IMG/VR virus record: IMGVR_UViG_3300042296_000383
Location: 660 to 64,659 of that record
Reading direction: 5' to 3' (one strand)
Length of the DNA: 64,000 nt
Origin: a virus
Lineage: Duplodnaviria; Caudoviricetes
The translations under genes were made by a program, and so were the position numbers. Below the pieces are notes generated by a model. The model did not search any database. It saw only the letters and a list, made by a program, of their open reading frames with translations, and was not told the DNA's origin. Of the stretch, positions 1-59,329 are shown piece by piece (within the stretch, counting starts at the first letter, position 1; every line of letters starts with the position of its first letter).

Positions 1-264
1 AGGCATTACTATACAGTGTGTTACAAGGATATTTCGGGGAGTAGGATTCGGTATATAAGAATATACCCTAAGGACGAATCCATCGGGTACGAAAATACGC
101 ACGAACACCTACGCAAACAAGCACTTTAGCGTTTTTTAACGTTTACTCGTTTTGACACTTTTTTCGGGGAGCGATCGAGAACGTGCACACACAACACAAA
201 GAACGCGTTTTCCGGGACGGGGCCCGCTGGTTATGGGAGAGGCGTATGGCGGAGGGGGTGAGGT

Positions 265-545
265 ATCGTACACGCGCGCGACCCCGCCAATCGAAATCGC
301 TTTTTCCGCGACGGGCGGGGTGCTCTACGCGTGCGCGTTTACCGCGTGCGTGCGCGTATAATCCATCGCGTGCGTGCGCGTGGTAATCCCGCGTAAACAT
401 GTGCGCGTGTTGGTATCCCCGTGCACCGTGCGCGTCCCGCATGCGCGCGCCATGGTACTCCCCGCGTGCAGAATGCGTGCGCGAGGTGGGTATTCGTGCG
501 CGTATCGGGGTAAACGGGCGTGAACGTGCGCGTTCGTGGGGCGTG
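265..545. repeat. Non-coding tract of degenerate GTGCGCG repeats (alternating purine/pyrimidine)
   Basis: About 9 copies of (C)GTGCGCG(T) or close variants between 329 and 535; overlapping ORFs are low-complexity R/A/C/H/T artefacts. Confidence 0.7.
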
Positions 546-982
546 TGGACTCACCCCCATTCGCCATTTCCCGCACCTAAATTTCCCCGCTCCCGTCCCT
601 CTCTATGTGGCGCGCTAGATTACTTCGGGAGGGTGTCAACGCGGCACCTGATTGTGAACTTTTCGCGGCGATTATTTCACGGAATGTTCGCGACAGTCAA
701 CGTTAAGCATTTGTTAAAAACTGTGAGCTATCCTTACTCCCACGTGGGCTGTAGCGCTTTCCGCTCACTTTTTCGCTGCCGTTGTACTTTTGTGCAACTT
801 TGCCTGTGTTTCTCGGGCTTGGTCTTGCTTGCTGTGGTATTTTCGGTGTTTTGAATGGTCAGTGTTTGTTGGTGTTTGCGGCGCTTTCCCTTCTGCGTCT
901 CTAGGTTTTGCTCGGAAAATAAAAAAAGTGCCCGCATAAATTAGGGCCTGCAGAACTATTTCGTGAAATTTCATAAAATAAA

Positions 983-1015
983 TTTGGAATAAGCAAATCG
1001 ATGACCGTAGATTTG
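983..1015 (+). promoter_or_regulatory. Bacteroidota primary-sigma promoter driving the early region
   Basis: TTTG (983-986), 21-nt spacer, TAGATTTG (1008-1015); fits the -33 TTTG / -7 TAnnTTTG consensus. Confidence 0.8.
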
Positions 1016-1261
1016 CCTCCGTCAAACAATGACAAGGGAGATACAGAATGCGCCCCTAGTGTTTATGAGTCCGCGAGGCATGTCATACACACCGAAGCAA
1101 GACAACGTGCTAACACCTGCACACGGTAACTCAAGCAGGTCAGCCCTAAGGTAACAAGGGGACGGGAGGCAGCCCGATAATGTGTTCAACATAACACAGC
1201 GATTTAATTAGCTAAACTGCCCCGAGCCGCATAAATAGTGCGGGAGACGAGACAAGCAACA

Positions 1262-1323
1262 GGCTAGCTGCATAGGGCAGCACGCAACGGCGTAAGGTGG
1301 TTCGAGTCCACCGCTAGCTACTA
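1262..1323 (+). ncRNA. Minimal tRNA-like element (about 59 nt plus CTA)
   Basis: Acceptor GGCTAGC/GCTAGCT+A, T-arm GGTGG-TTCGAGT-CCACC, two mini-hairpins (TGC/GCA, ACGC/GCGT) replacing the D and anticodon arms. Confidence 0.7.
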
Positions 1324-1344
1324 ACCAATTTAAATTTCATTATC

Positions 1345-1617
1345 ATGGCAACAAAGCAATTAGTAAACGCTAACAGTCAATTCTTTACAGACATGACAAG
1401 CGCTGACAGGGTGATTAACGTTAACGGTGGCGACATGCCAATCGGTTACTACAACCTCCTCCTCACTATCAGAGACCTCGGACTCTACAAGGTAGGTCTG
1501 AAGCCTAACCGTCATTGGAAGATTACCGACGTCAAGAAGTACTTCGGTATCAAGGGGAGTGCGGAGTCCATGCTCGAGGAGCTAAACACTATCAAGGACT
1601 TTTTAAAAGCAAAGTAA
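1345..1617 (+). CDS. Early hypothetical protein (90 aa)
   Basis: ORF with A/T-rich leader; first gene of the operon. Confidence 0.8.
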   Translation: MATKQLVNANSQFFTDMTSADRVINVNGGDMPIGYYNLLLTIRDLGLYKVGLKPNRHWKITDVKKYFGIKGSAESMLEELNTIKDFLKAK

Positions 1618-1622
1618 TCTAC

Positions 1623-1661
1623 AGCCCCGCCACGAGAGTGAGCGGGGCTTTGGCGGTATAA
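1623..1661 (+). other. Intergenic hairpin-GCRGTA motif, copy A
   Basis: AGCCCCGC-CACgagaGTG-a-GCGGGGCT then TTGGCGGTATAA. Confidence 0.75.
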
Positions 1662-1681
1662 CCATTTAAATTTTCATTATC

Positions 1682-1972
1682 ATGAGCAACAAGCTATCAA
1701 TTCACGGCGAACTGAACAACTTCATTGACTACTACACGTCTGATGACGAACTGCGCCGCAAAATGCGCGACTGCGTTATTGACTACCTAGAAGAGGTGCG
1801 CGAAGAGCCGCCCACGGTTGTCTTTATCAAGACGGTGTACAAGGACGTTGAGGTGTACGAGAAACACTTTGTAGGCGATTTAGACCCGTGCAAAGAAAAG
1901 TTTCCTCTCACGGAACTGTCGGCGAAGGTGCACAAGTACCAAGCGCTAGGCTGCGTGGTTGAAATTCGTTAA
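1682..1972 (+). CDS. Early hypothetical protein (96 aa)
   Basis: ORF; leader nearly identical to that of 1345. Confidence 0.75.
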   Translation: MSNKLSIHGELNNFIDYYTSDDELRRKMRDCVIDYLEEVREEPPTVVFIKTVYKDVEVYEKHFVGDLDPCKEKFPLTELSAKVHKYQALGCVVEIR

Positions 1973-1977
1973 CTAAC

Positions 1978-2019
1978 AAGCCCCGCCACTACCAAGTGTG
2001 CGGGGCTTTCGCAGTATAA
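1978..2019 (+). other. Intergenic hairpin-GCRGTA motif, copy B
   Basis: AAGCCCCGC-CACTaccaAGTG-t-GCGGGGCTT then TCGCAGTATAA. Confidence 0.75.
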
Positions 2020-2039
2020 AACAATTAATTTATTTCATC

Positions 2040-2213
2040 ATGACAACTTACTTCATCTGCAACACCGACAGCTACGGGCAAAGAACGGGCACCTACAGCG
2101 CTATTCAACTGAGCGAAGGCGACGTGAATATAGACAGCTACGGTAACAAGATACACGGCGGCAAATTTCTCTACGACAGCGAGCTAGAAATTGCGCGAGC
2201 GTGTCAAGATTAA
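2040..2213 (+). CDS. Early hypothetical protein (57 aa; start MTTYFIC)
   Basis: ATG after an A/T-rich leader; the upstream GTG lies inside the hairpin. Confidence 0.7.
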   Translation: MTTYFICNTDSYGQRTGTYSAIQLSEGDVNIDSYGNKIHGGKFLYDSELEIARACQD

Positions 2214-2259
2214 CTGATGAGGCTTGAGTAGCCGAAACACCCTTCGGGGTGTCTTAATC
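2208..2259 (+). ncRNA. Type I hammerhead ribozyme HH1
   Basis: GATTAA-CTGATGA-GGCT/tgagt/AGCC-GAA-ACACCC/ttcg/GGGTGT-C^TTAATC; GUC site, cut after 2253. Confidence 0.95.
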
Positions 2260-2276
2260 AATAAATAATTTTCATC

Positions 2277-2657
2277 ATGAAAGTAGAACTAAACATTGGG
2301 CTTGGTAACAACCCCTTCGACGGCAGCGCAGCAGCGCTTTTAACCTTCAACGTGCTAACCAAGCACGGCGCCTCCAACACAGCCTTCAGACTATCGAAAG
2401 GCGAGTACGTGGGCAGCGGCGAAGATAACATTGTCGCAATCTTTGATTGGGACATCAACCACGACGGGCTATGGAAATTTAACAAGGTAGGATTTCAGAC
2501 CCTCCTAGAAGCCCTAGCGACAATTATGACGCAGGAGTGCATAGCCTTCTACGTGCAGGATTGGAACGACGGCGGGCTAACGTTTGCCCCCGAGTACGAC
2601 GGCGAACGTTATGACTTCGATATTCAATACTTCGAACGTTGGGAGGCACAAGGTTAA
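2277..2657 (+). CDS. Early hypothetical protein (126 aa)
   Basis: ORF lying between HH1 and HH2. Confidence 0.8.
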   Translation: MKVELNIGLGNNPFDGSAAALLTFNVLTKHGASNTAFRLSKGEYVGSGEDNIVAIFDWDINHDGLWKFNKVGFQTLLEALATIMTQECIAFYVQDWNDGGLTFAPEYDGERYDFDIQYFERWEAQG

Positions 2658-2701
2658 CTGATGAGTCCTAAGTGGACGAAACGCCGCGAGGCGTCTTAAC
2701 C
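2652..2701 (+). ncRNA. Type I hammerhead ribozyme HH2
   Basis: GGTTAA-CTGATGA-GTCC/taagt/GGAC-GAA-ACGCC/gcga/GGCGT-C^TTAACC; cut after 2695. Confidence 0.95.
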
Positions 2702-2714
2702 AACACAATCTACA

Positions 2715-2900
2715 ATGACGAAGATTATCATTCTATTCTACCTGTTCACCGGACAGGTTCAGCAGGTAGACGACCTGTACACCGTGCACACCGGCACCGG
2801 CACCTACGAGTATGCCTGCGAAGGCGAGGTGTTCAATTGGATAGAGACGGGCACATTCAGCTACGACGACAGCCTGTGTAACTGCGGCGAAATCAACTAA
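2715..2900 (+). CDS. Early small protein (61 aa), hydrophobic N-terminus
   Basis: ORF starting 19 nt after the HH2 cleavage site. Confidence 0.7.
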   Translation: MTKIIILFYLFTGQVQQVDDLYTVHTGTGTYEYACEGEVFNWIETGTFSYDDSLCNCGEIN

Positions 2901-2915
2901 AAAAACCATACAAAA

Positions 2916-3050
2916 ATGAAAACATTTGCTCTTATCGCGTCACTAGCATGCATGGTGACAAGCGCAGTAATCGCTGACCTGTTCCTGTTCGGGATATCCG
3001 TAGTGTCAGTGTTCAGTTCAATTCTATTAACCTTTCAAAAGACTAAGTAA
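2916..3050 (+). CDS. Small membrane protein (44 aa)
   Basis: MKTFALIASLACMVTSAVIADLFLFGISVVSVFSSILLTFQKTK, translated by hand; fills the gap between genes. Confidence 0.7.
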   Translation: MKTFALIASLACMVTSAVIADLFLFGISVVSVFSSILLTFQKTK

Positions 3051-3051
3051 C

Positions 3052-3330
3052 ATGGACAAATTTGCAAGAATCGACACGGCGACAGGTCGCGGCATGAACG
3101 AGGGCTACTGCGTCAACGACGGCGTGGCTTACTTCGAAAACGAGAGCGACCTTATCGCTTACCTACGCAACGAGTGCAACGTTGATGAGAACAACGAACT
3201 CAGCGACGAGTTCATCTTGAACGAGGCTTATAACGTCGAGACCTACTACTACACCGAGTGGGACGCGGACGATGAGGACACCTACTACATAGAGGTCGAG
3301 GGCAAGTGGCTCGAGGTCCTGCAAGGTTAA
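3052..3330 (+). CDS. Early acidic hypothetical protein (92 aa)
   Basis: ORF, very rich in D/E/Y. Confidence 0.8.
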   Translation: MDKFARIDTATGRGMNEGYCVNDGVAYFENESDLIAYLRNECNVDENNELSDEFILNEAYNVETYYYTEWDADDEDTYYIEVEGKWLEVLQG

Positions 3331-3383
3331 CTGATGAGGCTTAAATAGCCGAAACGTGAGGTTGTGCGCCTCACGTATTAACC
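3325..3383 (+). ncRNA. Type I hammerhead ribozyme HH3
   Basis: GGTTAA-CTGATGA-GGCT/taaat/AGCC-GAA-ACGTGAGG/loop/CCTCACGT-A^TTAACC; GUA site, cut after 3377. Confidence 0.93.
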
Positions 3384-3397
3384 AATATAATTCAATC

Positions 3398-3628
3398 ATG
3401 AATCAGCTAATTACAATCTACATTAACGGTTGTTGGGACGCGGACCATACGGACGCGACCGACACCTCACCTGTACGTATCTTCGAAAAGGGGACTGTTG
3501 TTCAAGTCATCGCAAGTCAGTACGACCAATACATTGAAGACCTCGAGGAGAGGGGATATGACTGCTACCTCTGCCCCGACATGTACGCCAATCCTAAATG
3601 GAACGGTGAAATAATTTTCATAAACTAA
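3398..3628 (+). CDS. Early hypothetical protein (76 aa; start MNQLIT)
   Basis: ATG 20 nt after the HH3 cut. Confidence 0.7.
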   Translation: MNQLITIYINGCWDADHTDATDTSPVRIFEKGTVVQVIASQYDQYIEDLEERGYDCYLCPDMYANPKWNGEIIFIN

Positions 3629-3642
3629 TACCATAAATCACA

Positions 3643-3771
3643 ATGAAAAAAGTTATCGCACTAGCAATCATCATCATCACGCTCGCGTCATGCAGCACCA
3701 AGAAACTTACCCACTCACACTACACCAAGGGGGTCACTAACGGGCAGGACGGCTGCGCTTGGCACCGATAG
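3643..3771 (+). CDS. Small lipoprotein (42 aa)
   Basis: MKKVIALAIIIITLAS-CSTKK...; LASC lipobox, translated by hand. Confidence 0.75.
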   Translation: MKKVIALAIIIITLASCSTKKLTHSHYTKGVTNGQDGCAWHR

Positions 3772-3828
3772 GTTAACTGATGAGGTCTGAGTGACCGAAA
3801 CCTAGGGCACGCGCTCTAGGTCTTAACC
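3771..3828 (+). ncRNA. Type I hammerhead ribozyme HH4
   Basis: GGTTAA-CTGATGA-GGTC/tgagt/GACC-GAA-ACCTAGGGC/acgc/GCTCTAGGT-C^TTAACC; cut after 3822. Confidence 0.95.
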
Positions 3829-3843
3829 AATAAATAATTTGTC

Positions 3844-4218
3844 ATGAGTACAACAACACGCGCTATAGGACAGCGCAATTCATTCACACCGCAGGTAGAG
3901 CCTGCACCATTCAAAGTTAACCGCTTCGAGGTAGCTAGACTAGTGAAAGCACAAACCGACGCCGTGACGAGCGGCGTATGGGACTTCCCCATGGAGCACA
4001 AGTTCGACAACAGCGGCGATATATGGGACGCGGTCAACGCAGGCAAGAGCGTGCAGATGTTCGTGAGACAGTGCATGGTCGAGTTCGGCACCATCACGGG
4101 AGCCTTGCTCGGGAGTCAGTTCAACCACGTGTCCCACAGCAGCAAGCACGCCATCAGAAAGGGTGTGCTGAGAGCGCAGCAGTACAAGCAAATCATCGAA
4201 CAACTAAAAGCAAAGTAA
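3844..4218 (+). CDS. Early hypothetical protein (124 aa)
   Basis: ORF starting 21 nt after the HH4 cut. Confidence 0.8.
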   Translation: MSTTTRAIGQRNSFTPQVEPAPFKVNRFEVARLVKAQTDAVTSGVWDFPMEHKFDNSGDIWDAVNAGKSVQMFVRQCMVEFGTITGALLGSQFNHVSHSSKHAIRKGVLRAQQYKQIIEQLKAK

Positions 4219-4225
4219 TTATACC

Positions 4226-4267
4226 AAGCCCCGCCGCTCCCAAGCGTGCGGGGCTTTGGCGGTAGAA
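4226..4267 (+). other. Intergenic hairpin-GCRGTA motif, copy C
   Basis: AAGCCCCGC-CGCTcccaAGCG-t-GCGGGGCTT then TGGCGGTAGAA. Confidence 0.75.
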
Positions 4268-4290
4268 ACAATTTAAAAAACAAACACAAT

Positions 4291-4665
4291 ATGGGACGTT
4301 CAGTAATGACGCTAAGCGGGGCGCAAATGACCGCATACATCGGAGGAAGCAAAGACTTCGAGTGGGACTATCTTATCGAGGAACTGCAGGAACTCGGGAT
4401 GGAACTCGGGATGAACAAGTCTAGCAGATGGGAGGACAGGGAGGTTCTGATCTTGCTCGAAGGCAACGGAGCCGAGGTTGGAATCGCGGAGTACGGCGAC
4501 GTGATATCTTTCGGCATACGAACCGAGATGGAGGATGACCCGAGCGCGGCACGCTGGATTGACAAGAACGGTCCCGACCTTGTGAAGCTATTCCATAGCT
4601 ACGGCGACCCGATACGCAGCGTCGGCACATTCAGCAACGGAGAAACTGTTTACGAAAAAAAATAA
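4291..4665 (+). CDS. Early hypothetical protein (124 aa; start MGRSVM)
   Basis: ATG after an A-rich leader. Confidence 0.75.
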   Translation: MGRSVMTLSGAQMTAYIGGSKDFEWDYLIEELQELGMELGMNKSSRWEDREVLILLEGNGAEVGIAEYGDVISFGIRTEMEDDPSAARWIDKNGPDLVKLFHSYGDPIRSVGTFSNGETVYEKK

Positions 4666-4669
4666 TACC

Positions 4670-4912
4670 ATGAACATTAACGTATTTATCACACCGAACA
4701 AGGTGTACGCAACGTACCGCAAAACAATCTGCCACAAAGAAGATTTCAATCCTAATGATTACGAGGCTAAGCAAGGGTCAATCACGCGGGCACAGTCAAT
4801 AGCCTTCAGTCATGGGACTCAACACGGTTTATGCTTATTAAAACGAATTGAGATTGAGGAAGAATGGGGAGACGATGAATTGTTTAATTATCTAGAAACT
4901 AATATCCATTAA
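4670..4912 (+). CDS. Hypothetical protein (80 aa), AT-rich
   Basis: ORF in operon. Confidence 0.7.
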   Translation: MNINVFITPNKVYATYRKTICHKEDFNPNDYEAKQGSITRAQSIAFSHGTQHGLCLLKRIEIEEEWGDDELFNYLETNIH

Positions 4913-4916
4913 CAAC

Positions 4917-5270
4917 ATGAGCGGAAAAAAGTTTTACAACAGCGGCAGGATTGCCAACGTGTTCAGTCATCAGGACAGGCAGCGCCTGCTACACCACCAC
5001 TCGATGACCTACAAGATTTTTATGGAGCTAAGCGAGACAGGCTACTGGATGAAGCCTTCACTTATCGCAGAGTTCGAGGCGTGGAGCGACGAGGTCGAGA
5101 TACGCATGGGCAAGAAGCCCGACAGCGACTACAGCTACAAGGTGCTAGAGAACTGCGCGGACTACGGACCGCTCACGCTGGCGGAATACTTCGAGGGCTG
5201 CGCTAGGCACACGCGAGCGCTGTGCGAGAGCCTTGGGGCGGAGTACAACGACCACCTCCCGAAGATTTAA
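4917..5270 (+). CDS. Hypothetical protein (117 aa)
   Basis: ORF in operon. Confidence 0.75.
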   Translation: MSGKKFYNSGRIANVFSHQDRQRLLHHHSMTYKIFMELSETGYWMKPSLIAEFEAWSDEVEIRMGKKPDSDYSYKVLENCADYGPLTLAEYFEGCARHTRALCESLGAEYNDHLPKI

Positions 5271-5280
5271 TTTATTTGGT

Positions 5281-5328
5281 TACGCCACCGCCTTCGCTGA
5301 GAAATCAGCGGGGGTTTTGGCGGTATAA
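5281..5328 (+). other. Intergenic hairpin-GCRGTA motif, copy D
   Basis: CCTTCGCTGAgaaaTCAGCGGGGG then TTTTGGCGGTATAA. Confidence 0.7.
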
Positions 5329-5340
5329 ACAAACACAGAC

Positions 5341-5838
5341 ATGAAAGAAATAAAAGCAAGCGACCTCAAGGTCGGCGTCGTGTATCACGACACACCGAAT
5401 GAAAACAAGATAGCGTTCGTCTTTGTAAAGAGAACAGAGGACGCGCTGTGGTTTGTCCCACTATCCCCTTTAGATGCTCTCAAGGCGGCGCTGTACCAGA
5501 CAGACGAGAGCGGCATGATTTCGTTTGTGGATTTAGACATCTCTAAATGGTACTATGACGAGGAGCGATGCAGCCCCGACAGGATGCCCAACGGACTGAA
5601 TGACTGGGCAGAGATTCACCATGAAATTGTCAGCGTAATTACAGAAACGCTTGAACGTCCAGAGAGTGAGTGGGGGGACAACCTGAGATGGTATATAGAC
5701 CAGAGCGGAACAGGCGGGATGTACGAGCTAGGTATTGACCTCACTTGGGCGTTCGCTTACATGCACCAAGACACCGTGTGGGGGGAAGACTTGGACTGGT
5801 CCGATACCCTAGAGGAGTTTATTAACTCAAGCCTTTAA
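5341..5838 (+). CDS. Hypothetical protein (165 aa)
   Basis: ORF in operon. Confidence 0.75.
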   Translation: MKEIKASDLKVGVVYHDTPNENKIAFVFVKRTEDALWFVPLSPLDALKAALYQTDESGMISFVDLDISKWYYDEERCSPDRMPNGLNDWAEIHHEIVSVITETLERPESEWGDNLRWYIDQSGTGGMYELGIDLTWAFAYMHQDTVWGEDLDWSDTLEEFINSSL

Positions 5839-5849
5839 CATTCAGTGAC

Positions 5850-5889
5850 GACCTCGCCCGCATCCACGGGCGGGGTTTTCGCGGTATAA
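5850..5889 (+). other. Intergenic hairpin-GCRGTA motif, copy E
   Basis: GACCTCGCCCGcatccaCGGGCGGGGTT then TTCGCGGTATAA. Confidence 0.7.
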
Positions 5890-5901
5890 ACAAATACAAA
5901 C

Positions 5902-6231
5902 ATGAAAAGATACTTCACGTACCAGAAACAGCGCATGACATTCGAGAGCGCCATGACCCACGTCATAATCGAGGAGACCAACAATCAGACTCAGTCACTG
6001 AAGCTAAGGAAGGGGGTGCACCTCTCGGACTGGATGATGACCAAGGAAGAAGGCGAGGCGAGGCTTCAAGAGATTGCCAAGTACGACTGCGACGGCGCCA
6101 CCATAGTAGACGGAGCCGTGTCCAACGAGGGCAGCAGATACCAACTGCACAGCATCGAGAATCTGAGCGAGATTGAATTGCTTAAAATGTCGCGCGTGCT
6201 ACCACTAACATTTAAAGTATACCAGCCATGA
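5902..6231 (+). CDS. Hypothetical protein (109 aa)
   Basis: ORF; ATGA overlap with the next gene. Confidence 0.75.
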   Translation: MKRYFTYQKQRMTFESAMTHVIIEETNNQTQSLKLRKGVHLSDWMMTKEEGEARLQEIAKYDCDGATIVDGAVSNEGSRYQLHSIENLSEIELLKMSRVLPLTFKVYQP

Positions 6232-6464
6232 ACTACGACGTAATCATACACACCGACGCAAGCGGGCACGCCGCCGTCATCGAGGGCGTGTCCCTCAAGG
6301 GGATAAGATGGCTCGAGGACATGGGCACCACCGAGAACGGTAACCGATACCTCATAGGCAAGACCACCCACAAGGACTGGGAGAGCAGGTGCCACAACAA
6401 CGAAATGCTTTACACAATAGCCCGCCACGAGGCGACGGCACTAGAGATAAGGGGGAGAATATGA
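6228..6464 (+). CDS. Hypothetical protein (78 aa)
   Basis: ATGA-coupled ORF. Confidence 0.7.
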   Translation: MNYDVIIHTDASGHAAVIEGVSLKGIRWLEDMGTTENGNRYLIGKTTHKDWESRCHNNEMLYTIARHEATALEIRGRI

Positions 6465-6688
6465 CAAGGAAAAAACAATGGACACCTATCACCATGACGA
6501 TAGGCAGGGGAGTCGTGGAGTGGGACGACAGCGAGTTCTTGAGCTGGTGCATCTACTACCAAGAAGAAGTGAGAAACTTTTACAAACTGTACCTGCGCGA
6601 GACCAACGACAGGGCCACCACCTACATGGAATTTGCCATGGACATATACACCGACCACAAGGACATGCTAACACCAACACTTAACTAA
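6461..6688 (+). CDS. Hypothetical protein (75 aa; start MTRKKQW)
   Basis: ATGA-coupled ORF. Confidence 0.7.
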   Translation: MTRKKQWTPITMTIGRGVVEWDDSEFLSWCIYYQEEVRNFYKLYLRETNDRATTYMEFAMDIYTDHKDMLTPTLN

Positions 6689-6689
6689 G

Positions 6690-6866
6690 ATGAGAGTAAT
6701 ATCAAAACAGGGGGAGTTCAAGACAACGAACTCCATAACCACGTTCGAGGGCGACGTAACGGTCCGAGAGGGCGACACGTACAAGACCATCAGCGGCACG
6801 CACTACCACCACAACTATCAGTGGGGAGCACACTGGAACATAAACGGAGGTCGGATATGGAAATAA
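6690..6866 (+). CDS. Hypothetical protein (58 aa, MRVISKQGEF...)
   Basis: Translated by hand; fills the gap between genes. Confidence 0.6.
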   Translation: MRVISKQGEFKTTNSITTFEGDVTVREGDTYKTISGTHYHHNYQWGAHWNINGGRIWK

Positions 6867-7036
6867 AGCACACCATACTTACCGTATTCCTGATGTACTA
6901 CGCGAGCCTGCTGTTGCTGGCAGCCCGATGGTCCAAGTCCAAGCCCGTCTGGAGGGGAATAATGATAGCCCTGCCTATCCTGCTGGGAATAGCGACGGCG
7001 TGCATAACATGGAGGTCGCTATGCGCTGGATTATAA
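6857..7036 (+). CDS. Small two-TM membrane protein (59 aa)
   Basis: Two hydrophobic stretches. Confidence 0.6.
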   Translation: MEIKHTILTVFLMYYASLLLLAARWSKSKPVWRGIMIALPILLGIATACITWRSLCAGL

Positions 7037-7188
7037 TAGTGCTGAGCATGACGCTGCCCGTGTTCATGCTGGTCCGATACCATCAGAGGGGTGGGAGGGC
7101 GGTGTTCTACGTGCTGATCCTGATCACGATGGTGGCTATCATACGCCCGCACATAAAGCGATCGCTTAACAGGGACACGTGGAGGTAA
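7021..7188 (+). CDS. Small two-TM membrane protein (55 aa; MRWIIIV...)
   Basis: Two hydrophobic stretches with a basic loop. Confidence 0.55.
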   Translation: MRWIIIVLSMTLPVFMLVRYHQRGGRAVFYVLILITMVAIIRPHIKRSLNRDTWR

Positions 7189-7384
7189 TATTATTTACAA
7201 CCATAAAGCACCGAGATATTAACAGGCTCTATAAGAAAGCGAGACCTCATTGATAATATCAATCGATGTTATTGCTCTTATGTGGCGCCTGTGCTGTAAC
7301 TTTCAGCAGACAAAGCCAACACTTGTTAAACAACGCAAGTGTATGTCATTCAATCAATTATTAATATTATATTAGCAAAAAATT

Positions 7385-7783
7385 ATGTACATTATACCGA
7401 CAACAGCACTTCAATGGCTCGACACACTGCCGAGCGAGGTGCGAGAGAAAGCCCTGAGACACTCAGTGTCCAGCTCATTACAGGAAGACTGCAACTCACT
7501 CTACGACGCGCTCGCCCTTGCGTTTGTGTGGGAGAACACCCCCGAGGGGGACGAGTACTGGAGGGGGATTGCCAACGAGTACACCCCGAACTTCTTGGGC
7601 TTCATCGTCAGGTTCAGGGACGCCATCAACCTGTCCTACGTGGCAAGGTTCGGTAACATAAAGCGGCAGACCTTGGAGGACGCGCTGAGGGATGAGGACA
7701 AGCAGACTCCCGAGATGAACCAGAAAGTAATGACGCTATTCTGCGAGATGCAGAGGGCGTTGAATGAAATAAACTCACTATAA
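7385..7783 (+). CDS. Hypothetical protein, possible C-terminal HTH regulator
   Basis: INLSYVARFGNIKRQTLEDAL resembles a Cro/Xre HTH; follows a non-coding gap with promoter-like TATATTAG. Confidence 0.55.
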   Translation: MYIIPTTALQWLDTLPSEVREKALRHSVSSSLQEDCNSLYDALALAFVWENTPEGDEYWRGIANEYTPNFLGFIVRFRDAINLSYVARFGNIKRQTLEDALRDEDKQTPEMNQKVMTLFCEMQRALNEINSL

Positions 7784-7793
7784 AACAAACACA

Positions 7794-8039
7794 ATGACAA
7801 AACAAACTGCGGTTGAATGGTTAGTTAAAAGTTTAGAACATGTTGGTCTAGACTATCCACTTGGACAACACACTGATATAATTGTCCAAGCCAAAGCAAT
7901 GGAGCGTGAGCAGATTATTGATACGGTATTTGAAATTTTATACAGTGAATTTGAGGGTCAAGTTGCTAAAAAAGATTTATTGTATAGTGCTGAACAATAC
8001 TACATCGAAACATACGGAGGAGATGACAAGGGAGTCTAG
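7794..8039 (+). CDS. Small phage protein (KQTAVEWL...AKAMEREQI type)
   Basis: ORF, AT-rich relative to neighbours. Confidence 0.7.
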   Translation: MTKQTAVEWLVKSLEHVGLDYPLGQHTDIIVQAKAMEREQIIDTVFEILYSEFEGQVAKKDLLYSAEQYYIETYGGDDKGV

Positions 8040-8247
8040 GGCACTGTCCATAATCCAGTTCTTCATCGACAACCCCATCCCGTACAGGAGGGCGGCTCGG
8101 GTGTTCAGACCACAACGGGAGGGCAGGCTCATGATGCGAGTCTTCAAACAGAACAACGACTACGAGATCGAGGACCTCGACGCGTGGGAGGAAATAATAA
8201 AACAGGTTAAAGAGTATGGCAAGAAAGTCAAGAAAGAGAAGGGCTAA
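8023..8247 (+). CDS. Hypothetical protein (74 aa; start MTRESRAL)
   Basis: ORF in operon. Confidence 0.6.
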   Translation: MTRESRALSIIQFFIDNPIPYRRAARVFRPQREGRLMMRVFKQNNDYEIEDLDAWEEIIKQVKEYGKKVKKEKG

Positions 8248-8644
8248 GTCGGGCAGGTACCGACTACCCAAGGAGAGCAGGTCCAGAGGCCCGTCGTTAC
8301 TGGCAAGGCTGAGGGAGGAGCAACGCGTGGCGCTGACCGTGAGGTTGAACAGCGCCAAGATAGAGCAGAGTCTGGTGCGTACCGCAAAGAAAATTATAGC
8401 ACGTGCAGACAACCCCTCGTACAGGACGCCGCTGAGAATGTCGGTGTACTTCGACCACCTGTTCGTCACCATCGAGCCAGACCCGCAGAGGCGGAGGCGA
8501 AAACTGGTGAGGATATTCAGGCTCAGGCCCACGATTAGTGACGTGATGTGGGTGAGGTTGATATGGAAAGAGCAGAGCGCCATGGCCGTGAGGTCGAGAA
8601 GGCTCGGCATAAAGACAGGTCTAATAAATAAACAAATAACATAG
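8216..8644 (+). CDS. Very basic hypothetical protein (142 aa)
   Basis: R/K-rich ORF filling the gap before Erf. Confidence 0.5.
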   Translation: MARKSRKRRAKSGRYRLPKESRSRGPSLLARLREEQRVALTVRLNSAKIEQSLVRTAKKIIARADNPSYRTPLRMSVYFDHLFVTIEPDPQRRRRKLVRIFRLRPTISDVMWVRLIWKEQSAMAVRSRRLGIKTGLINKQIT

Positions 8645-8645
8645 C

Positions 8646-9284
8646 ATGAATCTATTACAGAAACTACACGCGATACAGACCAAGGTGAGGGCTGTATCAA
8701 AAGACGAGACGACCAAGAGTCAGTACAACCCTAATGGTTTTAACTACGTGTCTGGCGACAAGATAATCGGCGTGATCCGTCCGCTTATGGACGAGATGGG
8801 CGTGATATTAAAGTCCGAGGTCATCGATATGCACAACAGTACCCAGCAGTACACCACGTCAAAGGGCGCCACAAAGAATGAGGTGCTCACCAATCTAAGG
8901 ATGAGGATGACTTGGATAGACACCGAGTCTGGAGAACGCGAGGAGTGCATGTGGGGGGCGAACGGGATGAACGACTGGGACAAGGGATTCGGCAGCGCCG
9001 TGACCTACGGAATCAGGTACTTCATACTCAAGTCATTCCTAGTATCAACCGACGCGGACGATGTCGACGGTATCATAAGGGACGTGGACACGAGACCATC
9101 AGACCAGCACAAGTCTGCCCCGCAGCCCGAGCCTATGGTCGAGAGGCCATGGCTGGAAGACGACGCCGAGGCGATGAAAAAGGTGACCGCCTTCATGAAA
9201 AATGGTGGGTCGATCGACGACGTGTACACCAAGTTCAGAATGAAGAACGCTACAAAGCAGGAGTTAATTAATCTAAACAAATAA
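8646..9284 (+). CDS. erf: ERF-family single-strand annealing recombinase
   Basis: N-terminal LLQKLHAIQ; signature DKGFGSAVTYGIRY...DADD. Confidence 0.85.
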   Translation: MNLLQKLHAIQTKVRAVSKDETTKSQYNPNGFNYVSGDKIIGVIRPLMDEMGVILKSEVIDMHNSTQQYTTSKGATKNEVLTNLRMRMTWIDTESGEREECMWGANGMNDWDKGFGSAVTYGIRYFILKSFLVSTDADDVDGIIRDVDTRPSDQHKSAPQPEPMVERPWLEDDAEAMKKVTAFMKNGGSIDDVYTKFRMKNATKQELINLNK

Positions 9285-9286
9285 AC

Positions 9287-9757
9287 ATGGAACAGGTACA
9301 ACTATTCAACCAAGGACTCCTAACCAAGGACGGTATCAAGGACCTATCAAACCAGATCATCAACTCCCTAGACGAGGGGAACTTCAACCCGCTAGACTTT
9401 AAACTTGCAGCCAAGGGCTTCGAGAAGTTGATCGAGTCTGTCAAGGAGCAGATAGACGAGGCGGCCATGACCGAGGCGGCCAAGTACGGGCAGAAGACGT
9501 TCTCATACAAGGGGTCAGAGATTCAGGTGGTGGACAACCTCGGCGTGTCTTACGACTACAGCGAGTGCAACCACCCGCAGTACAACGCGGTGATGGAAGA
9601 GTTCAACAGGATAAGCAAGCTCAAGAAGGACTTAGAGGGTGAGCTTCAGGCTACCAAGACATCCCGAACGATGATCGACGAGAGCACGGGCGAGGTGGTG
9701 ACGGTGTACCCCCCAAGGAAGCGGTCAAAGAGCGGCATCAAGATCACTATAAAATAA
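9287..9757 (+). CDS. Phage protein adjacent to the recombinase
   Basis: ORF in operon; DESTGEV motif. Confidence 0.75.
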   Translation: MEQVQLFNQGLLTKDGIKDLSNQIINSLDEGNFNPLDFKLAAKGFEKLIESVKEQIDEAAMTEAAKYGQKTFSYKGSEIQVVDNLGVSYDYSECNHPQYNAVMEEFNRISKLKKDLEGELQATKTSRTMIDESTGEVVTVYPPRKRSKSGIKITIK

Positions 9758-9766
9758 GGAGGCAAC

Positions 9767-10000
9767 ATGAGACTGATGAAAGGTAAAGTAAAGATCAAGC
9801 CTGTGCTGGAGAAAGCAAGCGAGCTGATCGATGTCGAGCAGAGACGCGTGACCAAGGCGGTCATCGTGGACACGGGCGAGTGCGAGGAGGTGGAGGTCGG
9901 ATGGACGGTGTACATTAAGCCGACAGGCTTGAAGATGTTCATGGCCAGCGAGGACTCCACACTCATAATGAACGAGTCCGATATACTGGCAAGGGTATGA
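9767..10000 (+). CDS. groES: GroES/Cpn10-like protein
   Basis: GKVKIKP...VEVGWTVY...LIMNESDILARV pattern. Confidence 0.7.
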   Translation: MRLMKGKVKIKPVLEKASELIDVEQRRVTKAVIVDTGECEEVEVGWTVYIKPTGLKMFMASEDSTLIMNESDILARV

Positions 10001-10311
10001 ACACATCACCGTGTAAGTTCTACAGGGCAGGCTCCATAGCGAGCCGCGCCCTTGACTTTGTCGACGCAGAGCTAGGCCAGCTGGTCTACACCTACCCCGC
10101 AGACAACAACGAGAACCTTGCGCTGGTAATTGACGAACGTGGAATGTTCGTCACTACCTTTGTGAGTTTCGTTAAGGTGACTGACGTGGGAAGGGAGGAG
10201 AGGATCGAGCGCATAGTTCACGACATACTAAAGATGTCCAAGGTGTATGTCCCTACCTTGTTGACGGACCAGTTCGAGAGGGACGTGATTAACATTAAAA
10301 GAAAGCCATGA
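9997..10311 (+). CDS. Hypothetical protein (104 aa)
   Basis: ATGA-coupled ORF. Confidence 0.7.
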   Translation: MNTSPCKFYRAGSIASRALDFVDAELGQLVYTYPADNNENLALVIDERGMFVTTFVSFVKVTDVGREERIERIVHDILKMSKVYVPTLLTDQFERDVINIKRKP

Positions 10312-59227: not shown

Positions 59228-59329
59228 TAATCAGGACAGGATTCGAACCTGTACGGTATCTTTTGGATTTACATCAGCTTTAGGCTGGAATGCGAATACC
59301 ACCTGCGTCTACCATTCCGCCACCTGACT
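59228..59329 (-). ncRNA. tRNA-like RNA lacking a canonical anticodon arm
   Basis: AGTCAGG/CCTGATT acceptor, GCGGAATGGTAGACGC D-arm, ACAGG-TTCGAAT-CCTGT T-arm. Confidence 0.75.

What the first reader, a model, noticed from the sequence alone, without database searches (positions are those of the whole stretch)
1262..5902. RNA-punctuated early operon: ten gene junctions carry one of three RNA elements in the same slot
Seen: downstream of one clear promoter, junctions hold a tRNA mimic (1), a hairpin-GCRGTA motif (5) or a hammerhead (4), never two at once. Each lies at or just after a stop codon (except the first) and roughly 12-24 nt before the next ATG. Inference: a system that cuts the first transcript into mono- or oligocistronic mRNAs with structured 3' ends and short A/U leaders, functionally like RNase III processing of T7 early mRNA but partly protein-free. 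This is my best candidate for an undescribed system.
Basis: partly seen in the sequence, partly recalled or inferred. Interest (0 to 1): 0.88.

Follow-up and report, generated by a model that had tools for sequence, protein, structure and literature searches.

The report
Ribozyme- and hairpin-punctuated phage early operon
The first genes of this lake phage are separated by three kinds of small signals: four real self-cutting hammerhead RNAs, one tRNA look-alike, and five copies of a hairpin-plus-box element that is common in uncultured phages, is absent from the RNA family catalogue searched, and more likely acts on the transcribing polymerase than cuts RNA.

Summary
In 1262-5902, 10 of 15 gene junctions carry exactly one element: one tRNA-like element, five hairpin+TTTSGCRGTAKAA elements, four hammerheads. 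The other five junctions are 1-15 nt long.

- **Hammerheads:** canonical type I, 4 found against 0.18 expected. This kind is already described in prophages (Perreault 2011).
- **tRNA-like element:** conserved in two relatives, with changes only in loops.
- **Hairpin element:** 5 found against 0.01 expected. It belongs to a phage-enriched family. In viral contigs 37 of 68 motif sites have the hairpin, against 17 of 114 in bacterial genomes. It sits beside true hammerheads in at least four unrelated phage groups and matches no Rfam family.

Only one host-type promoter feeds the operon, so the hairpins must be read through.

The element looks like a terminator with its U-tract replaced. The invariant GTA lies 8-12 nt after the hairpin, and the box resembles the core of ops, the RfaH/UpxY loading site. 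My best reading (about 0.4) is a co-transcriptional pause or antitermination signal that also leaves a 3' hairpin.

In relatives the element type usually stays with the upstream gene. Earlier notes of this scan recorded second motifs in hammerhead slots on other DNA.

The parts
983..1015 (+). Host (Bacteroidota)-type promoter, TTTG-N21-TAGATTTG. It is the only one on the + strand ahead of the early operon.
   Evidence: Pattern scan; sequence. The same TAnnTTTG boxes follow long-U terminators in the late, minus-strand region.
1022..1261 (+). Non-coding leader of about 240 nt (start inferred from the promoter), conserved in relatives L151 and L145.
   Evidence: Sequences compared by eye. No ORF of note. 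No Rfam match at E<=10 other than a chance-level CRISPR-DR22 hit.
1262..1320 (+). tRNA-like element. Acceptor stem 1262-1268/1313-1319, two mini-hairpins, T arm 1296-1312, discriminator A1320. No anticodon arm.
   Evidence: Conserved in L151 and L145/L079 with changes only in loops and linkers, including T-loop positions 59-60.
1624..1661 (+). Hairpin element 1: hairpin 1624-1648, box TTTGGCGGTATAA 1649-1661.
1980..2019 (+). Hairpin element 2: hairpin 1980-2006, box TTTCGCAGTATAA 2007-2019.
2208..2259 (+). Hammerhead 1 (type I). Stop TAA 2211-2213 lies in stem I. Predicted cleavage after C2253.
   Evidence: Weak Rfam RAGATH-1-hammerhead hit, 21.7 bits.
2652..2701 (+). Hammerhead 2 (type I). 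Predicted cleavage after C2695.
   Evidence: Rfam Hammerhead_1 29.5 bits, E 4.6e-4, below the gathering score of 34. An ortholog is present in L151.
3325..3383 (+). Hammerhead 3 (type I, GUA site). Predicted cleavage after A3377.
   Evidence: The ortholog in L151 has CUGACGA, a change at the variable core position 7.
3771..3828 (+). Hammerhead 4 (type I). Stop TAG 3769-3771 abuts stem I. Predicted cleavage after C3822.
   Evidence: Orthologs follow the same 42-aa gene in L151 and in L183/L145.
4228..4267 (+). Hairpin element 3: hairpin 4228-4254, box TTTGGCGGTAGAA 4255-4267. This is the only window copy with GGCGGTAG.
   Evidence: Orthologs in L151, L183 and L138.
5290..5328 (+). Hairpin element 4: hairpin 5290-5315, box 5316-5328. 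An outer helix, 5283-5287 with 5318-5322, is specific to this copy.
   Evidence: One G-C to A-T compensatory change in the outer helix among three orthologs.
5852..5889 (+). Hairpin element 5: hairpin 5852-5875, box TTTCGCGGTATAA 5877-5889.

Best explanation
This is the left-end early operon of a 64.7-kb lake phage with a crAss-like tail. Host RNA polymerase transcribes it from one Bacteroidota-type promoter at 983-1015. The operon is a string of small ORF cassettes joined by interchangeable linkers.

Five linkers cut the RNA. The tRNA-like element at the end of the leader is inferred to be cut by host RNase P at its 5' side and by a tRNA 3' nuclease after A1320. The four type I hammerheads self-cleave, which is inferred from intact cores and stems. 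Each stays on the upstream fragment as a structured 3' cap and frees a 19-23-nt A/U-rich leader.

The five hairpin-UUU-SGYRGUAKAA linkers are most likely not cutters. They are terminator-like hairpins whose U-tract has been replaced by a GC-rich, ops-like box. The polymerase would pause about 10-11 nt past the hairpin and then escape rather than terminate. It may load or keep a NusG-family elongation factor there. The stable hairpin then marks and protects the 3' end of the upstream cistron once the RNA is trimmed.

Shown: the elements, their conservation and swaps, the single promoter, and the hairpin-to-box geometry. Inferred: cleavage, pausing, and any factor recruitment.
For: Real hammerheads. 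Core and three stems are intact in 4 of 4, with different stem II and III sequences. The same parse finds 167 distinct hammerheads in the viral loci, with 130 distinct stem II and 141 distinct stem III sequences.

Read-through is required.
- There is one promoter, and no TAnnTTTG on the + strand from 1008 to 10155.
- None of the five hairpins meets the terminator scan's U-tract rule.
- The late region uses hairpins with long T-runs (e.g. TTTTTTTT), several followed by a TAnnTTTG box.
- No T7-like RNAP was found, and no DxDxD motif in the seven largest ORFs. So the host enzyme meets these hairpins.

Geometry. In 71 hairpin-bearing sites the A of the invariant GTA lies 8-12 nt after the hairpin in 70 of 71, most often 9-10 nt. 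B. fragilis opsX pause hairpins reach -12 to -9 from the pause (PMC11685472, passages).

Box resembles ops.
- The invariant G-T-A preceded by R equals ops positions 4-7, the loop that RfaH contacts (PMC5995543, passages).
- E. coli ops sites share GCGGTAGC (PMC11685472). GGCGGTAG occurs in window copy 3 and in 8 of 71 sites.
- B. fragilis ops sequences follow a hairpin directly (PMC11685472).

No dedicated phage protein. No protein cluster is shared by 3 or more of 6 element-bearing phage genomes at BLASTP 1e-5. This points to conserved host machinery.

Phage-specific. 37 of 68 viral sites have the hairpin, against 17 of 114 bacterial sites.

3' module behaviour. The element type after a gene is the same in all genomes compared for 6 of 7 genes.

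In some phages the box ends 4 nt before, or overlaps, the next ATG. That fits a polymerase signal better than a cut site.
Against: - No pause, 3' end or factor binding has been measured.
- The ops pause determinants T11 and G12 are absent; the box continues AAAC.
- The commonest box is GGCAGTAG (14 of 71), with A at ops position 4. Position 8 is T in 4 of 5 window copies, which breaks the C3:G8 pair.
- RfaH is confined to Proteobacteria (PMC7593976, passages), and UpxY sites are about 40 bp and paralog-specific (PMC11685472). One box shared across host phyla is therefore hard to tie to one factor.
- No NusG-like (NGN) domain is encoded by any of 26 element-bearing records.
- The elements are not in operon leaders. 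They sit mid-operon, and in several complete phages they occur only once.
- Most sites in the tally were fetched with a pattern that fixed much of the box, so its frequencies are biased.
- The 'same slot as ribozymes' pattern, and leaders that start to be alike right after all three elements, fit RNA cutting as well.
Confidence: 0.4

Rival explanations
1. The hairpin element is an RNA processing site equivalent to the hammerheads. A host endonuclease (RNase E/G- or Y-like, or an unknown one) cuts in GUA-KAA. The upstream mRNA ends in a protective hairpin and the downstream mRNA gets a short A/U leader.
For: - It occupies the same slot as hammerheads in the window and in relatives, with hammerhead-to-hairpin swaps before the same gene in 4 of 7 comparable genes.
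- It lies in the same operons as true hammerheads in the window clade, G004/L137, L032 and L076/L096.
- The leaders after the tRNA-like element, hairpin element 1 and the hammerheads become alike (UAACCA...) exactly where the hammerhead cuts and where a tRNA 3' nuclease would cut.
- GCAGUAU resembles the RNase E site of RNA I (recalled, not checked).
Against: - No known nuclease has this specificity across phyla, and host endonucleases differ between Bacteroidota and Proteobacteria.
- The box touches or overlaps the next start codon in some phages, so a cut would remove the ribosome landing site.
- There is no catalytic fold, no Rfam match and no general second helix.
- RNA contigs gave no end information.
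Confidence: 0.3
2. Leaky intrinsic terminators (attenuators) combined with a conserved linker that serves mainly as a crossover point for cassette shuffling. This would resemble the PeSL terminator/promoter motifs of T4-like phages, with no factor recruitment and no cutting.
For: - A GC hairpin followed by 3-4 U is the proximal part of a terminator.
- Cassettes are shuffled between relatives and lake populations. Contig joints 2900->3635 and 4662->4910 are seen, and mosaic linkers.
- PeSLs are composite stem-loop motifs between small ORFs that mediate modular shuffling (PMC4122927, abstract and passages).
Against: - PeSLs contain a sigma70-type promoter. No host-type promoter lies in these linkers.
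- A 13-nt box is too short for homologous recombination.
- Its conservation in phages that share no detectable proteins is not explained by shuffling within one lineage.
Confidence: 0.15
3. The box is a promoter or start site for a phage or modified host polymerase. The hairpin terminates the previous unit.
For: - The position is 12-26 nt before the start codons in the window.
- The box contains TATAA/TAGAA, which is -10-like.
- It loosely resembles short single-subunit RNAP promoters (recalled).
Against: - PF00940 gave no match in the window genome or in 25 element-bearing records. The control rang nowhere, so this is weak evidence.
- There is no crAss-type DxDxD motif.
- The box lacks the T at -7 and shows no -35 or -33 element at a fixed spacing (my reading).
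- Some records are proviruses.
- The distance to the ATG ranges from -1 to 66 nt.
Confidence: 0.05
4. A DNA-level site, such as a strand-specific nick, a recombination site or a primase site. Examples are the localized nicks of phages T5, phiKMV and tf.
For: It is a strand-specific short consensus clustered near one genome end, as for the tf nick sites (PMC3517423, passages).
Against: - tf nick sites lie mostly inside genes and have no hairpin.
- The consensus differs.
- G-U pairs in the hairpins (e.g. GCCTCC/GGGGGC) show that the sense strand or the RNA is what folds.
- The elements are strictly co-oriented with genes and intergenic.
Confidence: 0.05
5. The boxes are substrates of one trans-acting hammerhead, as an earlier report of this scan proposed for another phage.
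For: - GUA followed by a purine or U is a legal hammerhead cleavage triplet context.
- The architecture (G+C-rich gene-free kilobase, then an early operon with hairpin+motif cassettes) matches notes e1-3293241 and e1-3293242.
Against: - No free catalytic strand with arms complementary to the box exists anywhere in the 64,659-bp genome. The only GAAACCGCC follows a segment that cannot form stem II.
- The box varies at three positions between copies, so one guide could not fit all of them.
Confidence: 0.02

Closest known systems
Clustered hammerhead ribozymes flanking genes in prophages (Perreault et al. 2011, PMC3088659; passages read)
   Same: Several canonical hammerheads lie between small, non-conserved genes of one transcription unit. 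The authors proposed that these cut long phage transcripts into gene-length mRNAs. Three tandem arrangements cleaved in vitro.
   Different: Here the hammerheads share their slot with two other element types. The stop codon is built into stem I. The host is probably a Bacteroidota member. The passages I read mention no alternation with hairpin or tRNA-like elements; the supplements were not seen.
ops (RfaH) and opsX (Bacteroides UpxY) pause and recruitment sites (PMC5995543, PMC11685472, PMC7819879; passages read)
   Same: A short element of the non-template strand with a G-G-T-A core. In Bacteroides a nascent-RNA pause hairpin directly precedes it and ends 9-12 nt before the pause. These sites act on elongating host RNAP and suppress polarity in long operons that are poorly coupled to translation.
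   Different: The T11-G12 pause dinucleotide is absent. The box is followed by AAAC. The elements are repeated at gene junctions rather than placed once in a leader. No cognate NusG paralog is encoded nearby. The U3-4 run is not part of ops.
PeSL composite terminator/promoter motifs of T4-like phages (PMC4122927, PMC2839356; abstract and passages of the first, listing only of the second)
   Same: Conserved stem-loop motifs sit in nearly every intergenic space of a block of small early ORFs. They are associated with insertion, deletion and swapping of ORF cassettes between close relatives.
   Different: PeSLs carry a sigma70-type -35/-10 promoter. The present element has none, and it is found in phages that share no detectable proteins.
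tRNA punctuation of mitochondrial transcripts and RNase P cleavage of bacterial operon mRNAs
   Same: A tRNA-shaped structure within a polycistronic RNA is used as a processing signal by RNase P and a 3' nuclease.
   Different: There is a single, anticodon-less mimic at the end of a non-coding leader, not a functional tRNA.
RNase III processing of T7 early mRNA
   Same: One early transcript carries structured intercistronic signals that leave hairpins at the 3' ends.
   Different: T7 sites are long duplexes cut by one host enzyme. Here the stems are 5-12 bp and at least four sites are self-cleaving.

Membership tests
Hammerhead ribozyme, type I (Rfam RF00163, clan CL00010) | Conserved core CUGANGA ... 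GAAA ... UH | tested here: met
   All four sites match; H17 is C, C, A, C.
Hammerhead ribozyme, type I (Rfam RF00163, clan CL00010) | Three helices with pairs next to the core; stem I open, stems II and III closed | tested here: met
   Stem I has 6 pairs, stem II 4 pairs, stem III 5-9 pairs, with differing sequences. 0 in 20 shuffles.
Hammerhead ribozyme, type I (Rfam RF00163, clan CL00010) | Score at or above Rfam's gathering threshold | tested here: not met
   The best is 29.5 bits against 34 (site 2). Sites 1 and 3 get only weak hits to related models, and site 4 gets none at E<=10.
Hammerhead ribozyme, type I (Rfam RF00163, clan CL00010) | Self-cleavage | not testable with these tools
   Needs in vitro transcription. 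The contigs of run X24 show no ends.
tRNA / tRNA-like RNase P-Z substrate | 7-bp acceptor stem stacked on a 5-bp T stem with a UUCRANN loop | tested here: met
   Sequence 1262-1320. The loop changes only at its last two positions in relatives.
tRNA / tRNA-like RNase P-Z substrate | D arm, anticodon arm, and recognition by tRNA finders | tested here: not met
   ARAGORN finds 0 genes. Rfam tRNA models are below threshold; tRNA-Sec scores 14.3 bits.
tRNA / tRNA-like RNase P-Z substrate | Cleavage by RNase P and a 3' nuclease | not testable with these tools
   Inference from the known substrate rules of these enzymes (recalled).
ops element (RfaH) | Core G2-C9 = GCGGTAGC in the non-template strand | tested here: inconclusive
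   Window copy 3 has GCGGTAG followed by A. The other four differ at 1-2 of these positions. Family-wide, G5, T6 and A7 are fixed and position 4 is G or A (a biased set).
ops element (RfaH) | T11-G12 pause dinucleotide | tested here: not met
   The box continues A-A-A/C-C/A in all five copies.
ops element (RfaH) | Single site in an operon leader; host encodes RfaH | tested here: not met
   There are five sites at internal junctions. RfaH is confined to Proteobacteria (PMC7593976), while the host signals here are Bacteroidota-like.
Bacteroides opsX (UpxY) | Nascent-RNA pause hairpin ending 9-12 nt before the pause site | tested here: inconclusive
   The distance from hairpin end to the A of GTA is 8-12 nt in 70 of 71 sites. 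The pause site itself is unknown.
Bacteroides opsX (UpxY) | ntDNA hairpin YGCGNAGCR and a cognate upxY gene downstream | tested here: not met
   The box has GGTA/AGTA rather than G-N-A. No NGN domain was found in 26 records, and the control rang in 10 of 14 genomes.
Intrinsic (factor-independent) terminator | GC-rich hairpin followed by a U-rich tract | tested here: not met
   The hairpin is present, but only 3-4 U follow. None of the five passes the scan's rule of 5 T in 8.
PeSL (T4-like phages) | Stem-loop plus an early promoter of host type | tested here: not met
   The stem-loop is present. No TAnnTTTG lies on the + strand between 1008 and 10155.
boxA (NusB/NusE site) | GYTCTTTAANA (gamma-proteobacterial consensus, PMC5725501) | tested here: not met
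   The element in Pseudomonas phage Psp6 reads GGGGCTTTGGCAGTA. It mismatches positions 2, 3, 8 and 9.

The most novel reading that the evidence does not exclude
The hairpin-UUU-GGYRGTA box is a phage-borne counterpart of ops. It would be a portable pause-and-load signal that captures a host NusG-family factor at each cassette boundary: UpxY-like paralogs in Bacteroidota, RfaH in Proteobacteria, or NusG itself. This would make a promoter-poor, ribozyme-cut early operon resistant to Rho and polarity. As a side effect it could draw these factors away from the host's capsule operons. It would be the first elongation-factor recruitment signal found as a mobile module shared by unrelated phages and interchangeable with self-cleaving ribozymes.
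Probability: 0.2. Interest if true: 0.85.

Novelty: new variant of a known kind. Interest (0 to 1): 0.6.

Why it matters
Hammerheads in phages have been known since 2011, but their purpose is still open. This operon and its relatives show them as one of three interchangeable 3'-end modules on shuffled ORF cassettes, which turns 'what are they for' into a comparison that can be tested.

The hairpin-box partner is the more useful result. It is short, abundant in uncultured phages of several host groups and absent from Rfam. It also occurs in a cultured phage, Pseudomonas phage Psp6. If it is a polymerase pause or loading signal, it links ribozyme punctuation to the control of transcription elongation. 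If it is a cut site, it defines an unknown nuclease specificity conserved across phyla.

Either way it offers a compact insulator part for synthetic operons in Bacteroidota.

Tried and rejected
- **Rfam.** The gathering-threshold scan of the whole window found only a tRNA-like hit at 59228-59329. The E<=10 scan of 1-9000 found no family for the hairpin elements or the leader.
- **Similar DNA in cultured phages.** Nothing matched window 1-8000.
- **T7-like RNAP promoter idea.** PF00940 was absent from the window genome and from 25 records. The control rang nowhere, so the result is weak. Dropped also because some records are proviruses.
- **crAss-type virion RNAP.** No DxDxD motif in seven large ORFs. 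phi14:2 early transcripts had no common upstream motif (bioRxiv 10.1101/2020.03.07.982082, passages).
- **Trans-hammerhead.** No enzyme strand found.
- **Outer helix pairing the box with the hairpin's 5' flank.** Mean best run 4.33 nt, against 3.92, 3.83 and 4.42 in three control windows. It is real only for element 4 and a few lineages.
- **Loop-box pseudoknot.** No covariation, judged by eye.
- **boxA.** Mismatches critical positions.
- **Sigma70, sigma54 and Bacteroidota promoter readings of the box.** No consistent second element (my reading).
- **CRISPR-repeat mimic.** The hairpins differ too much between copies.
- **Nick sites of phage tf.** Different consensus, inside genes.
- **Shared phage protein.** None in 3 or more of 6 genomes. 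No NusG-like domain.
- **Covariance model of the hairpin element.** Abandoned because hairpin registers differ across the alignment. Scripts were used instead.
- **RNA evidence.** One metatranscriptome run (X24) held 5% of the sampled words. Its 8 short contig pieces lie inside ORFs of relatives (85-99% alike) and show no ends at the junctions. This is no evidence either way. The habitat 'lake water' rests on DNA runs, two of which may be the source.
- **BLAST of 32-34-nt elements against cultured phages.** Full-length hits came only in Pseudomonas phages Psp6, 16Q and vB_PseuGesM_254. The last two, as read in 254, lack GTA. Otherwise only the hairpin part matched, annotated as a terminator in Felix O1-like phages.
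- **Not seen.** Figures and supplements of the papers were not available. Fig. 1b of PMC11685472 (all opsX sequences) and the supplementary tables of Perreault 2011 may bear on the ops comparison and on prior sightings of the hairpin motif.
- **Not-in-print claim.** My statement that the hairpin element is not in print rests on searches and on the Rfam scans only.

Full report
**Where it lies.** The window is bases 660-64659 of a 64,659-bp IMG/VR virus record, estimated 97% complete.
- Small + strand ORFs run from 1345 to about 13 kb. Everything beyond is on the minus strand.
- The late genes include a portal, large terminase, primase/helicase and a protein whose N-terminus matches the crAss muzzle protein (PF25731, E 2.2e-8).
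- Start codons lack Shine-Dalgarno sequences. The late region has hairpins with long T-runs, several followed by TAnnTTTG boxes. The host is therefore probably a Bacteroidota member.
- DNA runs that hold the stretch are lake-water metagenomes (two may be the source).
- No T7-like RNAP and no DxDxD motif in the seven largest ORFs were found.
- The only full host-type promoter on the + strand is at 983-1015, and no TAnnTTTG follows on that strand until 10155.
- So host RNAP most likely transcribes the early operon from one start near 1022.

**The observation.** Of 15 junctions between 1262 and 5902, ten hold exactly one element. The other five are 1-15 nt long and hold none.
- Four hammerhead matches, against 0.18 expected.
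- Five box matches, against 0.01 expected.
- All lie on the + strand, 12-24 nt before the next ATG.

**Hammerheads.** All four have the full core, a 6-bp stem I that contains or abuts the stop codon, a 4-bp stem II and a 5-9-bp stem III. The stem sequences differ.
- Rfam scores are below threshold: best 29.5 against 34 bits. By that one criterion they are not members. By the defining core and helices they are.
- My parse finds 167 distinct hammerheads in the fetched viral loci, with 130 different stem II and 141 different stem III sequences.
- Orthologs in relative L151 keep the fold. One has CUGACGA, a change at the variable core position.
- Perreault et al. 2011 already described several hammerheads flanking single genes in prophages. 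They proposed processing into gene-length mRNAs (PMC3088659, passages). This part is a new member of a known kind.

**tRNA-like element.** Positions 1262-1320 have a 7-bp acceptor stem, two mini-hairpins, a T arm with loop UUCGAGU and discriminator A, but no anticodon arm.
- tRNA finders reject it. Its folding energy is unremarkable (z -1.5).
- It is conserved in L151 and L145/L079. Changes occur only in loops and linkers, including the two variable T-loop positions. With three sequences there is no compensatory evidence.
- Cutting by RNase P and a 3' nuclease is an inference.

**The hairpin element.** Each copy is a stable GC hairpin (-23 to -29 kcal/mol) followed by 3-4 U and S-G-Y-R-G-T-A-K-A-A.
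- A scan of IMG/VR for GGGG, 0-2 nt, then the box returned 80 loci. This is near the number I estimate by chance for the sequence alone.
- However, 37 of 68 distinct viral sites are preceded by a hairpin of at least 5 bp. In the (truncated) bacterial genome scan the figure is 17 of 114.
- The viral sites are intergenic and co-oriented with their genes. 26 of 30 examined have an upstream ORF of at least 40 codons ending within 90 nt before the T-run. 28 of 30 have a start codon -1 to 66 nt after the box.
- Some downstream genes have clear Shine-Dalgarno sequences, so hosts outside Bacteroidota are involved.
- One cultured phage carries a full copy: Pseudomonas phage Psp6.
- True hammerheads lie in the same operons in the window clade, G004/L137, L032 and L076/L096. 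Those loci were fetched for their hammerheads. In them, 13 of 216 sense-strand 'hairpin+TTT' sites carry N4-5-GTA-N-A, against 2 of 257 antisense sites (which includes relative L079).
- Several complete phages have a single strict copy. G004 has three looser copies in the first 4.6 kb of its leftward operon.
- Six element-bearing genomes share no protein cluster in three or more of them.

**What the hairpin element is not.**
- Not a known RNA family.
- Not a substrate of a trans hammerhead in this genome.
- Not a two-helix fold in general.
- Not boxA.
- Not a host-type promoter.
- Not a standard terminator.
- Not like the tf nick sites.

**What it most resembles.**
- The hairpin and its proximal U's are the upstream half of an intrinsic terminator. 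The distal U-tract is replaced by a GC-rich box.
- The whole operon depends on one promoter, so polymerase has to pass all five.
- The conserved tract begins at the foot of the hairpin. The invariant GTA ends 8-12 nt later in 70 of 71 sites. That is the stretch held in the RNA-DNA hybrid and bubble when a nascent hairpin acts on RNAP.
- In B. fragilis capsule operons, pause hairpins that reach -12 to -9 are followed directly by an ops-like non-template element, and both parts are needed to load UpxY (PMC11685472, passages).
- E. coli ops sites share GCGGTAGC (same paper). Positions 4-7 (G-G-T-A) form the loop that RfaH contacts. G5A, A7T, G4C and G8C abolish recruitment (PMC5995543, passages).
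- The phage box has R-G-T-A fixed at exactly these positions. It reads GGCGGTAG in window copy 3 and in 8 of 71 sites.
- I therefore read the element as a 'pause-then-escape' signal for host RNAP, possibly an elongation-factor loading site, that also leaves a 3' hairpin on the upstream cistron.

**Against this reading.**
- The T11-G12 pause bases are missing.
- The commonest box has A at position 4, and position 8 is often T.
- The sites are not in leaders.
- RfaH is proteobacterial (PMC7593976), and UpxY sites are long and paralog-specific.
- No NusG-like gene is phage-encoded.
- Nothing has been measured.
- The resemblance to ops was first recalled and then checked only against passages, not figures.

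**Swaps.** I compared the window with L151 and with two near-identical contigs, L079+L183 and L145+L138.
- The element type before a given gene differs in 4 of 7 comparable genes. For example, MKVELN follows a hammerhead in the window but a hairpin element in the relatives. MTTYFIC shows the reverse.
- The type after a gene is the same in 6 of 7; the exception is MKVELN.
- Linkers are mosaics: hairpin, box and leader recombine separately.
- Lake populations carry cassette indels.
- So the elements behave as 3' modules of ORF cassettes, as PeSLs do in T4-like phages (PMC4122927), but without a promoter.
- This fits a role in forming or protecting the 3' end of the upstream message. The type I hammerhead stays on the upstream fragment after cutting, and the hairpin would do the same job.

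**Verdict.**
- Self-cleavage at four junctions and tRNA-type processing at one are likely.
- The five hairpin elements are real and widespread, and I found no description of them.
- Whether they pause polymerase (my preference, about 0.4), are cut (about 0.3) or merely attenuate (about 0.15) needs end-mapping or in vitro transcription.
- Phage Psp6 offers a cultured test case.

Noticed in passing
window 230-560: G+C-rich, ORF-poor stretch full of GTGCGCG-type repeats upstream of the early promoter. A similar stretch precedes the promoter in relatives L145 and L151. It could be an origin, a packaging region or a structured DNA region.
   Followed up: no
window 1022-1261: Conserved 240-nt non-coding leader between the promoter and the tRNA-like element. 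RNase P cutting would release it as a separate RNA. It has no Rfam match.
   Followed up: partly
G000:C1:20-60 (outside the window, minus strand): A further T-arm-like sequence (GCGGGTTCGAATCCCGC) at the extreme left end of the record, downstream of a minus-strand ORF. ARAGORN does not call it.
   Followed up: no
window 59228-59329 (minus strand): Rfam tRNA hit of 36.5 bits with a 37-nt insertion in place of the anticodon region. ARAGORN finds no tRNA.
   Followed up: no
window 2900-3635, 4662-4910, 2682-3324: Contigs from other lake samples join across these stretches, so whole ORF cassettes are present or absent in natural populations. One joint carries 12 replacement bases.
   Followed up: partly
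window 3629-3642, 4666-4669; L151 7201-7204: Element-free junctions often read stop codon, TACC, (few nt), ATG. TACC is the complement of the GGTA core of the box. This may be chance.
   Followed up: no
G001 (96-kb phage record), e.g. 7375, 12775, 60720: A different repeated composite in an unrelated phage: the same hairpin followed by TTTTTACGCC and then a Shine-Dalgarno sequence, at least five times. Hairpin-plus-box linkers may be a general phage design.
   Followed up: no
window 13702-34425 (minus strand): A run of giant virion-type ORFs (1415, 821, 1948, 459, 826, 1233 aa). Only weak family matches: GNAT domain in the 821-aa ORF, crAss muzzle N-terminus in the 1233-aa ORF. No polymerase motif.
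   Followed up: partly
L222 2064-2309 (Pseudomonas phage Psp6): Psp6, the cultured phage that carries the hairpin element, encodes a CsrA homolog about 500 nt downstream of it.
   Followed up: no
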